Below are positions 15,650 to 27,602 of a stretch of 64,000 nt of DNA, one piece after another (position 1 is the first letter of the stretch; every line of letters starts with the position of its first letter). Made by a program: the position numbers and the translations under genes. Source of the DNA: the human T2T-CHM13v2.0 reference genome, Homo sapiens; assembly GCF_009914755.1 (NCBI RefSeq), contig NC_060926.1; one strand, 5' to 3'. The notes under the pieces were generated by a model, which had not been told where the DNA came from, did not search any database, and was given only the letters and a program-made list of their open reading frames with translations.

Positions 15650-15784
15650 GTATTTTCTTACACTGCTGACAAAGAAATCCGAACCGATGACTTGTGCTTG
15701 GATGTTTCTAGACTCAATGGACCTGTAATCATGTTAAAATGCCACCATATGAGAGGAAATCAGTTATGGGAATATGATGCTGAG
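15650..15784 (+). CDS. GALNT13: GALNT13 penultimate coding exon (ricin-type lectin domain, beta repeat), 135 nt, phase 0/0
   Basis: Acceptor tattttcag|G, donor GAG|gtatag. Translates to [45 protein letters not shown], with CLD and QLW ricin motifs, as recalled for GalNAc-T13. Confidence 0.97.
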
Positions 15785-19070: not shown

Positions 19071-21115
19071 CTTGATGTTGTCGAAAAACTGGAAATAATT
19101 AGATTCTCTTTCAGTGGTTAAGATATAATAAGCTAAATATACAGTATTTCAAATGGAATAGCTAAATGCTATCAGTTATTTGTTATGCCAAATTTTGAAC
19201 TAAAATTTCTCATTTTTTTAATAGGGGGAAAGGTGTTCTACAATAAATATGGTCCATTTAGCTAAATAAGCAGTCATAAAACTACTTTGTCATTTTGCTC
19301 TAATTGCTTACAAACTTCAGCTATACATATTCATAATATAATATCTAATTGCTTATCCTTGTAATTGAATGAAACTAAGCACATGTTAGTAATAAATGCA
19401 CTTCTTTGGTCAACTTTGATTTCAAGTGTAGTTTCTCACACCCCTAACTAAATAGTCCTTAAATAACCACGAATTCAATTCACTGTCATCTTATATGTGG
19501 CCTAACCTGTTTGAATTGAGGGCATCCTGGGCATCATTAGCAAAATTGTGGGGTACCTACGTGGTCTGGAAGCTTAAATAAATTGCACAAACCCTTCTGT
19601 GCCATGAAATGCCTATTGCCAGGATTAAATGAAAAGAAAAAAATTCATCTCACTGAGACATTTTAAAAATTATTTTTATAAAGTTCTGTCATCCATTAAT
19701 TCTATTGTTTTCAGGTGTTCTTATATTCTGTTTGAACATTATAATTATGTTCCAATCAATTTAGAATATTTCCCTATGATATGTGCACATAATTACATTT
19801 CTTTTTGAATAACTAGGCAGCTACATACAGTGTGAGAATCTAATTTTAGATCAGAACACTTATGTTCAACAAACACTATGCAACAAAGAAAAAAAGGGAG
19901 AAAAATATGATACTAAAAATAACTTATTTTTCATGTGACTGAGCAAGTTGACTTAGAAAATACTTGTTGTGAATTCTATATACATCTGTATCAAATAATT
20001 TCCAGAGTCACAATATAAGGAATTTTTTTCCATAGGTGAAATGTGTTAGATTAATATTTAGACTTTACTTACACTACCATCTTTTATTTACCTTTATTAG
20101 AGAGCAGGTAAATGGGATTATAATTTCAAGGTAAGTGATCTTTAAGTGCATCCCAGCCATTCCCCTGTGTAGCATTCCTAAGAAAAACAATGGCTCAATT
20201 TACCTTTTGAAGGTTGTGTGCATTACACAGTTATTACCTTTCCATATTCCTATTGACCCATAGCTGTGATTTCTTATTAGAAGTAGTGAGTAGGAATTTC
20301 AATAGATTAGCGTCATATTTGTAGTTCCTATATGTTAAATGATTACACTTCATATTTTATAATATTTCTGTTCGACTGAATGCGTAGATTACCTTGTCTG
20401 GAGATCATAATTAATGTTTTGAGTAACAACTTTGTTATATTAATTTTTAATTGTTATTCTATGCTTGATTAACAGAAGAACTCCTATTATCTTTGCTATT
20501 AAATTAAATATAGTACAAATTTATACTTATTTTGTATATGATTATATGTAATAACATAATTGATTGGGTTTTATTTTAATCTTTTACTATACCAACTTTT
20601 AAACTGAGACCTGTGCGATTGGCTCTTAAATCAACTATGCAGTCAGTTCATTAAAATATCTATTTTTTTAAATTAGTATGTTTTAATACCAAGGTATGGC
20701 CTAATTTTACAATATTAATGGCTCTTATTTTGTCACCAAAATTGTTTAGCCTGATTCCAGTTGGCTTTAAGTAGGAATTATATATTTGGAAGGGTAAAGT
20801 TAGAGATACTCCACGCTACATTTTATGTTAGTCAAACTTGCAAATATATTTAAAGGCATGAATCGTTAATATTTTTCTTATGTATTTTTACATGTTACGA
20901 TTAAAATATTCTACATTGCAGGCAATACCAAGGCTTTACATTCTAGAGGAGAACAATAAAGTAATACTATATTATAAACAAAACTCAATACTATCTTAGG
21001 GTTTAGATGATCCTATTTTTAGTCAATATTTTAAATAAAGCTATAGGAAAATATATTTGGCAGTAAGTTGCGTGTCAGCCTGGATGTCACATTGTCTTCA
21101 AAGTTGAGTTAATAT

Positions 21116-22849: not shown

Positions 22850-23000
22850 GAATCAACAGACTTACTTAGTGTCTCCCAAGGGCAGGCACGGAGCTTCAAG
22901 ATGTAGGTGGCCATAGTCTGTGGCTTTCCTGGAGCTTATGTTCCTATGGAGGAAATAGATGGAGAGCAAGAAACAGACAGATAAATTAATTAATTAAAAT
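22850..23000 (-). mobile_element. L2 3' fragment
   Basis: acttacttagtgtctcccaagggcaggcac...tggagcttatgttcctatggaggaaataga. Confidence 0.5.
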
Positions 23001-23625: not shown

Positions 23626-23811
23626 ACCCACACTCTTCTTCATATAATCACCCAGTCTTGTCTCTCAGTGAACAAAGTAGCTGATGGCTCCCAGCATCCT
23701 ACTGTGGAAACCTGTAATGATAGCACTTTGCAAAAATGGCTACTAAGAAACTATACAAGAATGGAAATTTTTAGAAATATTTTTGGGAATTCTACTGATT
23801 ACATTCTCTAA
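23626..23811 (+). CDS. GALNT13: GALNT13 alternative coding exon: diverged duplicate of the lectin gamma-repeat/C-terminal exon, with its own stop
   Basis: Pyrimidine tract plus aacag| acceptor in phase 0 with exon 15650-15784. Encodes THTLLHIITQSCLSVNKVADGSQHPTVETCNDSTLQKWLLRNYTRMEIFRNIFGNSTDYIL*, which aligns with the canonical last exon (TLxH, CL, PT, C, QxWLLRNxT). Second in-frame acceptor at 23655|23656; candidate donor GAG|gtttgt at 23823|23824. Confidence 0.9.
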   Translation, partial: THTLLHIITQSCLSVNKVADGSQHPTVETCNDSTLQKWLLRNYTRMEIFRNIFGNSTDYIL

Positions 23812-26800
23812 TGATTTTTGGAGGTTTGTGTTGCAGATTTTATTAAATTTATTTTAGCATTTTTGTTATGTTCAGTTATTGAAATCTGGAAACTCCTTTA
23901 AAATGTGGTTAAGAAAAATTTGTATGACCTTTTCTCCATGGAGTTAACTCTCTGTCTTTTACTTCCTAGCTACTCATTAATTTGGGGACTGCATATATTA
24001 AGTTGTGTTTAGTCTATCCTTAATGAGTAGGGTTTTTTTTGTTTTTTTTCTTTATTTTAAACATATATATGCATAAATATACTTGATGAACGATATTATG
24101 AAATATTAACTCTCTTTGAGGCAAACTATAGCCATGTCTATATGACAACAGGTTCTGCGTCATCAGATCTGAAAAAAATCGATTAAAAAACTAACAGGGC
24201 CAAAGAAAGTATTGTTTCTAAGACACTGGAATCATTTATTTTTGTTTCTTTTTATTCAGATACTTTGGTTAAATGCAAATATGGCATATCCTTTCTAAAG
24301 TATCTTATTATTTTAATTAAAACACTAAGCAAACACATTATTAAAGACTAAGATGTGATTTTTAATACCTTTATAAAGAAAATTATTTCTAAGCATTTCT
24401 TTGTGGTTGCCTAAGTGAAACAATATTTTTTTAAGTTGTATCTTTTATCTCTCACTTTTATGATTTGTGACTATCTTTTCAGCAAGCAATAAAATGAATC
24501 ATTACACAGGTCAAATCAACAAACTGATATGGAATTCTTGTAAAGAGTGCAAATAAGAACATGTCCTAGCTTTTAGTTTTAAAGAGTGTATTATCCAATA
24601 ATTAAAGGATTTTACTTTGTCCCAGACCTTACAATGAGAACACAAGGAAGATTGGGGCATTTTTCTGGTTCAGATGAACCACTTAAAGATTGTTAGTGGA
24701 GGAAACAATTGAGCTCAGAAGTCTTGGAACAAGGCTAGAAATGAAATTATGGATGAGGGGACAACATATGGGGTACTATTTTACTTAGAACTATATTCAA
24801 GCCAAAGACATTCCAAATGTAAGAGTTGGTAAAGCTGGAAAAGTCTAGGTCTTTTGCACAAAGAGAACTTATGTACAGAGCAATTTATGTGTATTATCTT
24901 AGTTTGCTTTCAGAGCAACCAATCCTGATACGTGCAGTGCCAAAAAAGGAAGCTTAGGCTTAACTAAATATTTATTCTCACAAGTCTACTGTAGAGTGCT
25001 AGAGCAGAGACCACAGAGTGCTTCTCTCCATAGGAGAAATTGGAGCAGTTCCCTTAGCAGTTCTTACAGCCTTCTTTACAGGTAACAGTCTGTTGCAAGG
25101 AGATGAGATCCACATCAGGCAGATGTCAAAACCATCCTGGCTTATTAGCCTTATCCTCACAGAAGATGATGTTTCCTTGTAACAACTCCATAGGCCTAGC
25201 TTCCAGGAACCAAATAAAACATTTAGAATTACAAGTCTGCATTTAGAAAAGCCCGAAGTTTGCTTTTCTGTTAGTATATATATGCAATTTATCAGTTGCA
25301 GATGCAGTTTATCAATCAGAGTTCACTTTTACCATAAACAATGTAGCCTAGAAACATAGTTAACATTTTTACCCTTTCAAGGTTGCCAGGGGATTACAGT
25401 TAGATAGTTGACTGAAGGTCAAATTTTTTAAACAAAAGGGAAAAACTGTATTTGTAAGCATGTTTAAGTCTAAGTATTTTCTGACAAAGAACATGATTCC
25501 TCAGAATAATTTGAAACATGCCTGAGTGTTCACAGCCAGTAAGTAAAGGACAGGAATTTACCTGAGTCTAAAAGGTCTGGTTTTCCACTGCACTACATTA
25601 TAAAGGAGAAGTATTTAGTTGTTTGTCTCTGCAGCAGTGGGTTTTGACTATTAGTGAATTCCTTCAAATAAATCATATATTGTTTAGAAAGAACAATAAT
25701 AACTAGTGTTTTTAAAATTATTATTTGTGCAGTTGACAACATCTATTCAACATGTTCCTTAAAGAAAAATCTCCCTAAGTCTGTGCTATATTTTGAACTA
25801 AGGTAACTGATAATTGATCAAAGCATTCAACTACTATGATATGTGATCAATTGCAATAAGACACTGGGAGTGCTTTCCGGGGTAGCTTAATGGGCAATGA
25901 CATATTTGATATATGAAAAATCATACTTTTTTTAAAAAGGGATCTAATAGAAGTATGCAATGGTAAGTGATATTTTTGAAAGAGAATATATACACAAAAG
26001 ACCACAGGTACGTAACAAAAATGAAACAATTTTGTTGATTTTTAACTAGAACTGTCTAGAAAAAATACATATTGTTTTTGTTATGCATCTTTATTTTTTC
26101 AAGCTGGCTACTGGTTGAATTTCTGGCATAATAAGCATAAATCAGCCATCTTCTTGCCTATCTTTGGCCATTTATTCCTTTCTTTGTTTTTTAGTGTAAA
26201 TAGCTTGATTCCATGTTTTGAAAGAGCAACAACAAAGGTCTCAATCTTGAAATCTCCTTTGTATCTAATTGCCTTGCTCTTTTAATTTCCTGCTTGCTGC
26301 CTCTTAGGCCTCTTCCGCCACAAACCTATTCTCCATTCCATCATTTCTTACAACAGTGCAGTCCACGATGTTTTCAGTCCTAATCTAAGCAAACTACAAT
26401 CGTCTGGCTGCTGTTCCTCTACCATTTTTATGGCCCACCCCTTACATTTACTTTCATCCCATTTTCAATGTAGTATCATGAGCCAAAAAAAAAAAAAAAA
26501 AATTTCTTTGCCTTTAATTTTGGTAATTTGTAAAAAAAAAGTATCTAGAGTGCTATTTTCAAGATATATTTGCAAATCATCTCTCATACATTCAAATACT
26601 TCGCTTCTGGTTGGAGAGGTTTTCATATAATATGATCCTAGGTATTGCCCATGAAATAGCAGAAATATATATAATTAGTATGTATAAATCATGTTGATTT
26701 AAAATGTATATCTGAAAAGTCCAAAAATGTGATTTCCAATGTACATAAAAATGCCAAAGAGAAGATATATAATGACTGGTTAACATACAATTATTGGAAT

Positions 26801-27461: not shown

Positions 27462-27602
27462 AGACTCACGTTGCGACATGTTAACAGTAACCAATGTCTC
27501 GATGAACCTTCTGAAGAAGACAAAATGGTGCCTACAATGCAGGACTGTAGTGGAAGCAGATCCCAACAGTGGCTGCTAAGGAACATGACCTTGGGCACAT
27601 GA
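27462..27602 (+). CDS. GALNT13: GALNT13 canonical last coding exon (lectin gamma repeat and stop)
   Basis: Acceptor atcttttacag|AGA. Translates to [46 protein letters not shown] followed by TGA (27600-27602). Confidence 0.97.

What the first reader, a model, noticed from the sequence alone, without database searches (positions are those of the whole stretch)
23626..23811. Duplicated, diverged lectin gamma-repeat exon gives GALNT13 a swappable C-terminal sugar-binding module
Seen: an intact phase-0 exon in the last intron whose translation (THTLLHIITQSCLSVNKVADGSQHPTVETCNDSTLQKWLLRN) aligns with the canonical last exon ([41 protein letters not shown]). Both Cys, PT and QxWLLRNxT are kept while most other positions differ, which suggests old duplication plus purifying selection. 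Established: ricin-type lectin repeats of GalNAc-Ts bind GalNAc through the Asp of the CLD motif and steer glycopeptide site choice. Here CLD has become CLS. Inference: splicing switches the gamma pocket between a potentially binding and a non-binding form while keeping the beta-trefoil fold. I recall GALNT13 lectin-domain splice variants being reported, so the exon is probably annotated; its function is the open question.
Basis: partly seen in the sequence, partly recalled or inferred. Interest (0 to 1): 0.8.

Follow-up and report, generated by a model that had tools for sequence, protein, structure and literature searches.

The report
Known ancient alternative GALNT13 lectin exon
This is a real, already annotated and catalogued alternative last coding exon of the brain glycosyltransferase gene GALNT13, conserved from sharks to humans, but it probably does not switch a sugar-binding pocket on and off as proposed.

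Summary
Window 23626-23811 (+) is an intact phase-0 exon of 61 codons plus TAA, homologous to the canonical last coding exon 27462-27602 (17/42 identical, E 7e-9).

It is old and constrained. A profile search found 85 proteins carrying it, from mammals to sharks and chimaera. It is not new: RefSeq annotates it, and Martinez-Gomez et al. 2021 list it as tandem-duplication event 83. I recall, but could not read, that Festari et al. 2017 assayed this variant.

The proposed gamma-pocket switch is not supported. In GalNAc-T1/T13 only alpha and beta bind GalNAc, and D525A in gamma has no effect (Collette 2024). Both gamma versions appear to lack the His and Asn of the binding triad.

Three things do change:
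- The acidic loop loses charge (-5 to -1).
- A 19-residue tail is added and is strongly conserved.
- A conserved 30-nt microexon at 20101-20130 appears only with this exon in other species' gene models. It is absent from the human RefSeq table supplied.

Both structure predictions failed. Function remains open. Interest is low to moderate.

The parts
15650..15784 (+). Penultimate coding exon of GALNT13 (beta repeat of the lectin domain). It ends in phase 0 and is the common splice donor for all three downstream choices.
   Evidence: Pfam Ricin_B_lectin E 1.7e-9; hub RefSeq table.
20101..20130 (+). 30-nt phase-0 microexon (RAGKWDYNFK) with a pyrimidine-rich AG acceptor and a GTAAGT donor. It is not in the supplied human RefSeq table. 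In other vertebrates' gene models it lies between the beta exon and the alternative gamma exon.
   Evidence: Orthologous KAGKWEYNFK / YAGKWEYNFE / YVGKWEYDFE appear in bat, rat, rabbit, tenrec, lemming, frogs and teleosts. It is present in 27 of 85 alternative-exon models (26 plus one read-through model) and in 0 of 59 models I classed as T13-canonical.
23626..23811 (+). Alternative gamma-repeat coding exon: 61 codons plus TAA at 23809-23811. The first 42 residues are the homologous gamma repeat and the last 19 are a conserved C-terminal tail.
23656..23823 (+). Shorter form of the same exon from an internal acceptor (cccag|TCT). It removes THTLLHIITQ in frame.
   Evidence: Hub RefSeq table. 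The same short form is seen in 4 other species' models (P0026, P0044, P0079, P0085).
23812..23823 (+). 12 untranslated bases between the stop codon and the GT donor at 23824. The stop lies closer than 50-55 nt to the junction.
   Evidence: RefSeq's other exon end, 23819, is followed by GG, which is not a canonical donor.
27462..27602 (+). Canonical last coding exon (gamma repeat with CLD and an acidic loop). It becomes 3' UTR when the alternative exon is included.

Best explanation
The feature is the known alternative C-terminal coding exon of GALNT13. It arose by tandem duplication of the exon encoding the gamma repeat of the ricin-type lectin domain, at or before the ancestor of jawed vertebrates, and has been kept by purifying selection. 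When it is spliced in after exon 15650-15784, its own stop codon ends the protein. The canonical last exon then serves only as 3' UTR. Because the stop lies 12 nt before the next junction, the mRNA should escape nonsense-mediated decay (inferred from the usual 50-55 nt rule). The protein keeps its catalytic domain and its two GalNAc-binding repeats (alpha and beta). It exchanges the non-sugar-binding gamma repeat for a version without the acidic loop and gains a conserved 19-residue luminal tail (consensus NYTRxEVFRNIFYSPTDYFL). In many species' models it also gains a 10-residue microexon insert at the beta/gamma boundary. My inference is that the swap changes a GalNAc-independent surface. The effect could be on a partner-binding or regulatory face, on stability, or on the geometry of the lectin domain near the interdomain linker. 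It does not switch a sugar pocket.
For: Sequence and homology:
- establish the exon, its phase and its likeness to the canonical exon.

Distribution and constraint:
- The single-sequence search found 23 proteins. The profile search found 85 proteins with E <= 0.001 among 1303 candidates. They cover placentals, marsupials, birds, reptiles, amphibians, lungfish, gar, sturgeon, paddlefish, teleosts, chimaera and sharks.
- Identity to human is 100% in four catarrhine or ape models and 48-53% in sharks.
- In 66 unique sequences, H6, Q10, C12, L13, C31, W39, N43 and E48 are invariant. Tail residues T58, D59, Y60 and L62 are 92-97% conserved.
- An N-x-S/T sequon follows the repeat in 72 of 72 unique sequences.

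The event is specific to T13:
- There is no copy in the last intron of human GALNT1. Only the canonical GALNT1 exon scores (about 1e-9), and the next best hits have E of 0.079 or more.
- The one hit named 'T1' is T13-like.

Gamma does not bind sugar:
- Collette 2024, passages read.
- The position equivalent to CLD is S or T in 66 of 66 unique alternative exons.

Surface change:
- Loop charge is -5 versus -1 in human. The means are -4.15 (26 unique T13 canonical), -2.97 (29 T1) and -1.58 (72 alternative).

Prior description:
- The supplementary table of Martinez-Gomez 2021 lists GALNT13 event 83, ENST00000392825 versus ENST00000453715, C-terminal, with last common ancestor Chordata.
- Martinez-Gomez 2022 names GALNT13 among families with such events.
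Against: No expression or junction data could be examined here. The Martinez-Gomez 2021 table has a blank in its Proteomics column for this event, so there is no peptide evidence for the isoform in that study. The alternative exon evolves much faster than the canonical one: 48-53% versus 91-93% identity between human and sharks or rays. In placentals the tail has drifted from YSPTDYFL to forms such as GNSTDYIL, which may mean weaker constraint in mammals. As I recall it, the Festari et al. 2017 abstract reports essentially unaltered in vitro activity for this variant. That fits 'not a sugar switch' but leaves no demonstrated functional difference at all. The functional part of the statement is inference. 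Both structure predictions failed, so neither the position of the tail nor that of the gamma loop relative to the catalytic domain is known.
Confidence: 0.8

Rival explanations
1. One reading: the exon swap toggles the gamma repeat between a GalNAc-binding form (CLD) and a non-binding form (CLS), and so re-steers the choice of glycopeptide sites.
For: CLD versus CLS is real. The Asp is absent in 66 of 66 unique alternative exons and present in 108 of 108 canonical T13/T1 exons extracted. Conservation of that Asp in the canonical exon shows it matters for something.
Against: Collette 2024 states that gamma has no GalNAc-binding potential, that D525A (gamma) in GalNAc-T1 does not reduce affinity for glycosylated substrates, and that the motif needs Asp, His and Asn. 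By my alignment, the canonical gamma has Ser at both the His and the Asn place. Recalled: Festari 2017 found unaltered activity for the variant.
Confidence: 0.06
2. A charge switch of the PGANT9A/B kind: removing the acidic [12 protein letters not shown] loop changes the preference for charged, unglycosylated substrates.
For: The loop charge difference is large and conserved. In Drosophila, alternative lectin-domain exons of pgant9 reverse the charge of a loop and thereby the preference for charged peptides (Ji et al. 2018, passages read).
Against: In PGANT9 the loop is in the alpha repeat and reaches towards the active site. In GalNAc-T1 it is the beta repeat that lies at the lectin/catalytic and peptide interface, and gamma is not mentioned there (Collette 2024). 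No structural model of either isoform could be obtained.
Confidence: 0.15
3. In humans the exon is a conserved relic with little or no protein-level role. Its inclusion is low-level or tumour-associated splicing noise, or it mainly regulates how much canonical enzyme is made.
For: The proteomics column for this event is blank. Evolution is faster than for the canonical exon, and the tail has drifted in placentals. Multiple RT-PCR bands are reported in tumour lines (PMC13705257, passage read).
Against: There is no amino-acid change between human and four other catarrhine or ape models over 61 codons. The reading frame, both Cys, QxW and the tail are kept in the full-length alternative-exon peptides I aligned, which span jawed vertebrates (80 peptides, 66 unique). 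A stop 12 nt before the junction argues against a decay-targeting exon (inference).
Confidence: 0.1

Closest known systems
GALNT13 alternative C-terminal isoform: Ensembl ENST00000453715, event 83 of Martinez-Gomez et al. 2021. I recall this as the 'Ex10b' variant of Festari et al. 2017.
   Same: It is the same gene and a C-terminal tandem-duplication substitution paired with the canonical RLTLRH... exon. RefSeq lists exons 23626-23819/23823 (hub table).
   Different: Nothing essential differs: this is the same object. Added here are the survey across jawed vertebrates, the conserved tail, the coupled microexon and the charge contrast. The equation with 'Ex10b' and its assay result is recalled. 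The paper was not held.
Drosophila PGANT9A/PGANT9B (alternative exon 8A/8B of the lectin domain)
   Same: Homologous alternative exons replace one repeat of a GalNAc-transferase lectin domain and change loop charge.
   Different: That event is in the alpha repeat, is internal and adds no tail. Its loop is shown to approach the active site, and a substrate effect was shown. Here the repeat is gamma, the exon is C-terminal, and no effect has been shown.
Gamma repeat of GalNAc-T1 (PDB 1xhb, 8v9q)
   Same: It is the best solved-structure match of the alternative peptide (E 2.8e-4, residues 3-49). The match includes the terminal EIF that T13's canonical exon lacks. In the human genome the alternative exon also scores better against the GALNT1 last exon (E 1.6e-4) than against GALNT13's own (E 0.69).
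   Different: T1 keeps CLD and ends at EIF. The alternative exon has CLS/T and runs on for 12 more residues. GALNT1 has no second copy in its last intron.
Tandem exon duplication-derived C-terminal substitutions in general (77 of 236 human events)
   Same: These are homologous exons, ancient, and often specific to nervous tissue (main-text passage of PMC8373072; abstract of PMC9741552).
   Different: Exclusivity here comes from a stop codon inside a cassette exon, not from strict either/or splicing.

Membership tests
Ricin-type beta-trefoil lectin repeat (gamma repeat of a GalNAc-transferase) | Pair of conserved Cys and a QxW motif at the standard spacing | tested here: met
   C12, C31 and W39 are invariant in 66 of 66 unique sequences, and Q37 is present in 61 of 66.
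Ricin-type beta-trefoil lectin repeat (gamma repeat of a GalNAc-transferase) | Match to the Pfam Ricin_B_lectin profile | tested here: inconclusive
   E 0.021 and 15.4 bits against a cut-off of 29, for a 61-residue fragment. The precomputed Pfam domains listed for the full-length alternative isoforms include PF00652.
GalNAc-binding lectin repeat | Asp + His + Asn binding triad (as defined in Collette 2024) | tested here: not met
   The alternative gamma has S/T at the Asp place in 66 of 66. By my alignment, human has Asn and Leu at the His and Asn places. The canonical gamma has Asp but Ser at both other places.
Tandem exon duplication-derived substitution | Two neighbouring homologous exons of equal phase that replace each other in the protein | tested here: met
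   The stop at 23809-23811 excludes the canonical exon from the protein.
Tandem exon duplication-derived substitution | Both versions conserved across species | tested here: met
   The alternative exon is in 85 proteins. The canonical exon is 91-93% identical between human and sharks or rays. The event is listed in the published catalogue.
Tandem exon duplication-derived substitution | Both junction sets used in vivo | not testable with these tools
   No RNA-seq was available. The only support is RefSeq/Ensembl annotation and other species' gene models.
PGANT9-type charge switch | Alternative exon changes the net charge of a lectin-domain loop | tested here: met
   -5 versus -1 in human; means -4.15 versus -1.58.
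PGANT9-type charge switch | That loop lies close to the active site or substrate path | not testable with these tools
   The AlphaFold2 models were unusable, with pLDDT 34.6 and 33.3. The literature places beta, not gamma, at the interface in T1.

The most novel reading that the evidence does not exclude
The alternative gamma exon and the upstream 30-nt microexon form one coordinated C-terminal module conserved across jawed vertebrates, possibly neuron-specific. Its point would be the tail, not the repeat. The near-invariant luminal end (...EVFRNIFYSPTDYFL) would act as a docking or autoregulatory peptide. For example, it could be a Pro-Thr acceptor-like segment that the enzyme glycosylates on itself and then binds with its own alpha or beta pocket. 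Alternatively it could be a motif for a luminal partner that sets where in the secretory pathway the enzyme acts. This would explain why simple in vitro assays see no difference.
Probability: 0.12. Interest if true: 0.55.

Novelty: already known. Interest (0 to 1): 0.3.

Why it matters
GalNAc-T13 is the brain-enriched initiator of mucin-type O-glycosylation, and a recent mouse study links it to neurite architecture and memory (PMC12974515, abstract and passages read). An isoform kept since the ancestor of jawed vertebrates (sharks to humans) is unlikely to be noise, yet no functional difference has been shown for it. This check removes one tempting explanation, a gamma sugar-pocket switch. It points experiments instead at the conserved C-terminal tail, the lost acidic loop and the coupled microexon. 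The microexon is absent from the human RefSeq table supplied and may deserve annotation. The existence, homology and antiquity of the exon itself are already in databases and in print.

Tried and rejected
- **Structure prediction of both alternative isoforms.** Alignment A4 had 36 sequences (571-residue form) and A5 had 26 (581-residue form with the microexon). Mean pLDDT was 34.6 and 33.3, and pTM 0.25 and 0.24. The alignments held only close orthologues. The models are unusable, so I make no structural statement and ran no fold search.
- **Festari et al. 2017.** The paper is not held under its PMC id or its DOI. Full-text searches for 'Ex10b' and for phrases such as 'GalNAc-T13 splice variants' found only papers that cite it. 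What I say about its content is recalled.
- **Search for an older or intermediate copy.** A profile of 12 alternative exons was run against 1.84 billion representative proteins. It gave 10 hits at E <= 3.5e-22, and the four I inspected plus P0009 and P0022 (seen) are alternative-exon ORFs, mostly on short unnamed contigs. There was then a gap to E 9.5e-7, where the hits I inspected were canonical T1/T13 gamma exons and one unrelated ricin-type repeat protein. No cyclostome, tunicate or invertebrate copy was recognised. I could therefore not confirm the 'Chordata' dating of the published table. My own evidence reaches jawed vertebrates.
- **Second copy in GALNT1.** None was found in its last intron.
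- **Tree of T13-canonical, T13-alternative and T1 gamma exons.** I considered this and did not run it. About 42 alignable residues and no usable outgroup would not settle whether the duplication predates the T1/T13 split.
- **Microexon as a duplicate of the end of exon 15650-15784.** Only 15 of 30 bases are identical, plus a shared W-E/D-Y-D/N core. That is too short to claim.
- **Complex prediction.** No job was sent. Splitting a single beta-trefoil domain would pass trivially and say nothing about the tail.

Full report
**Observation.** Window 23626-23811 (+) lies behind a pyrimidine-rich AG acceptor and reads 61 codons and then TAA. The upstream coding exon 15650-15784 ends on a complete codon before GT, so the junction is phase 0. 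BLASTP of the two peptides gives 17/42 identities and E 7e-9. A tblastn of the alternative peptide against the whole window finds the canonical exon at E 1.8e-5 and nothing else better than E 0.13. The peptide weakly matches the Pfam ricin B lectin profile (E 0.021, below the curated cut-off). Its best solved-structure match is the C-terminal gamma repeat of GalNAc-T1 (1xhb and 8v9q, E about 3e-4).

**Anatomy.**
- RefSeq's exon end 23823 is followed by GT. The other listed end, 23819, is followed by GG and is not a canonical donor.
- The exon is therefore a cassette with its own stop codon, 12 nt before the donor. By the usual 50-55 nt rule, such an mRNA should not be a target of nonsense-mediated decay (inference).
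- RefSeq's third variant starts at an internal acceptor, 23656 (cccag|TCT), and removes THTLLHIITQ in frame. The same short form occurs in models of four other species.

**Age and constraint.**
- A single-sequence search found the exon in 23 longer proteins, including turtle and snake.
- A profile of six sequences found 85 proteins with E <= 0.001 among 1303 candidates. They cover placentals, marsupials, birds, reptiles, caecilian, frogs, newt, lungfish, gar, sturgeon, paddlefish, many teleosts, chimaera and several sharks.
- Two of the 85 carry misleading names. P0034 is a model fused with the neighbouring potassium-channel gene. P0084 is called GalNAc-T1, but it is 89% identical to whale-shark T13 and only 65-69% identical to T1 proteins.
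- The exon is 100% identical to human in chimpanzee, gibbon, macaque and baboon models.
- In 66 unique full-length exon peptides, H6, Q10, C12, L13, C31, W39, N43 and E48 never vary.
- The canonical exon is far more conserved: 91-93% identity between human and sharks or rays, against 48-53% for the alternative exon.
- Human GALNT1 has no second copy in its roughly 6-kb last intron.
- A profile search of 1.84 billion representative proteins found no older or intermediate copy. My own evidence therefore dates the event to the ancestor of jawed vertebrates. The published table says Chordata, which I could not check.

- *The tail.* The last 19 residues are not part of the repeat, yet they are among the best conserved. 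The consensus is NYTRxEVFRNIFYSPTDYFL, with T58, D59, Y60 and L62 at 92-97%. The nine-residue end FYSPTDYFL is the commonest among 72 unique sequences. Placentals have drifted (human FGNSTDYIL).
- *The microexon.* Many models carry ten extra residues between the beta exon and the alternative exon: KAGKWEYNFK in bat, rat, rabbit, tenrec and lemming; YAGKWEYNFE in frogs; YVGKWEYDFE in teleosts. The human window holds this microexon intact at 20101-20130 (RAGKWDYNFK), with an AG acceptor and a GTAAGT donor in phase 0. It is not in the RefSeq table supplied.
- *Coupling.* Among the proteins fetched, the microexon occurs in 27 of 85 alternative-exon models (26 plus one read-through model) and in 0 of 59 models I classed as T13-canonical (Fisher p about 1e-7). 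These are predicted models that are not independent of one another, so this is a lead, not proof of coupling.

**Sugar binding.**
- Collette et al. [quoted passage not shown] - They also state that D444A and D484A, but not D525A (gamma), lower affinity for glycosylated substrates.
- In the sequences here, alpha and beta show CLD...CH...NQ. The canonical gamma shows CLD...CS...SQ. The alternative gamma shows CLS...CN...LQ. The placing of His and Asn is my own alignment.
- What does change is the loop after CLx. Its net charge is -5 in the canonical and -1 in the alternative human exon. The means are -4.15 (26 unique T13 canonical), -2.97 (29 unique T1) and -1.58 (72 unique alternative).

**What is in print.**
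- The supplementary table of Martinez-Gomez et al. 2021 lists GALNT13 as event 83, C-terminal, ENST00000392825 versus ENST00000453715. The Proteomics column is blank, there is no flag for sharing with paralogues, and the last common ancestor is Chordata (supplement read).
- Martinez-Gomez et al. 2022 name GALNT13 with Pgant5 and gly-5 as a family with independent events of this kind (passage and supplement read).
- Festari et al. 2017 could not be read. A 2026 paper cites it for multiple GalNAc-T13 isoforms in neuroblastoma.
- From memory of the Festari abstract, one lectin-domain variant called Ex10b had essentially unaltered activity in vitro and was high in tumour lines. I take Ex10b to be this exon, but that is recall.
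- My full-text searches for GALNT13 with 'microexon', and for GALNT13 with 'alternative splicing' and 'exon' (listing only), returned nothing whose title or abstract start concerns the microexon or the tail. Supplements and subscription journals were not searched.

**Mechanism.**
- *Shown:* the exon replaces the gamma repeat and adds a tail, while the alpha and beta pockets are untouched.
- *Inferred:* the functional difference lies in a GalNAc-independent surface.
- The closest worked example is Drosophila PGANT9A/B, where alternative alpha-repeat exons reverse a loop's charge and the preference for charged peptides.
- In GalNAc-T1, however, it is the beta repeat that sits at the catalytic and peptide interface. 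A direct charge effect of gamma on catalysis is therefore uncertain.
- The N and C termini of a beta-trefoil lie together (general knowledge). The tail should therefore emerge near the interdomain linker, whose properties are reported to set long-range glycosylation preferences (title of the reference cited). That is a plausible route, but untested.
- Both AlphaFold2 runs failed, so none of this could be examined structurally.

**Verdict.** The exon is already annotated and catalogued. The specific functional idea is contradicted by published mutagenesis on the paralogue and by the sequence. Residual interest lies in the conserved tail, the lost acidic loop and the coupled microexon missing from the supplied human annotation.

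Noticed in passing
window 20101-20130 (+): An intact 30-nt phase-0 microexon (RAGKWDYNFK; AG acceptor, GTAAGT donor). It is orthologous to a 10-residue insert in GALNT13 models of bat, rat, rabbit, tenrec, lemming, frogs and teleosts. It is absent from the supplied human RefSeq table and is seen only together with the alternative gamma exon in the fetched models.
   Followed up: partly
window 23656 (internal acceptor) and 23819 / 23823 (exon ends): The internal acceptor removes the first ten residues of the alternative gamma repeat, and the same short form appears in four other species' models. RefSeq's exon end 23819 is followed by GG rather than GT, so it is probably a transcript end or an artefact and not a splice donor.
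   Followed up: partly
window 23626-23811 versus G000:C18:35901126-35901275 (L002, L008): The alternative exon scores better against the last exon of GALNT1 (E 1.6e-4) than against GALNT13's own canonical exon (E 0.69). It shares T1's terminal E-I/V-F, which the T13 canonical exon has lost. This is compatible with a duplication near or before the T1/T13 split, but is not decisive.
   Followed up: partly
proteins P0034 and P0084: Two public gene models are misleading. One is named for the potassium-channel gene next to GALNT13 and is evidently a fusion. The other is a shark protein named GalNAc-T1 that is clearly T13-like.
   Followed up: yes
window 23785-23796 (tail codons) and orthologues: In placentals the conserved tail motif YSPTDY has become xN[S/T/L/P]TDY. 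In human and several other species this creates a second N-x-T glycosylation sequon (12 of 72 unique sequences).
   Followed up: no
window 12912-34506 (-): According to the hub table, the antisense lncRNA GALNT13-AS1 spans all three alternative 3' exons, with one of its exons (22866-22943) about 700 bp upstream of the alternative exon. A role in the splice choice is conceivable but was not examined.
   Followed up: no
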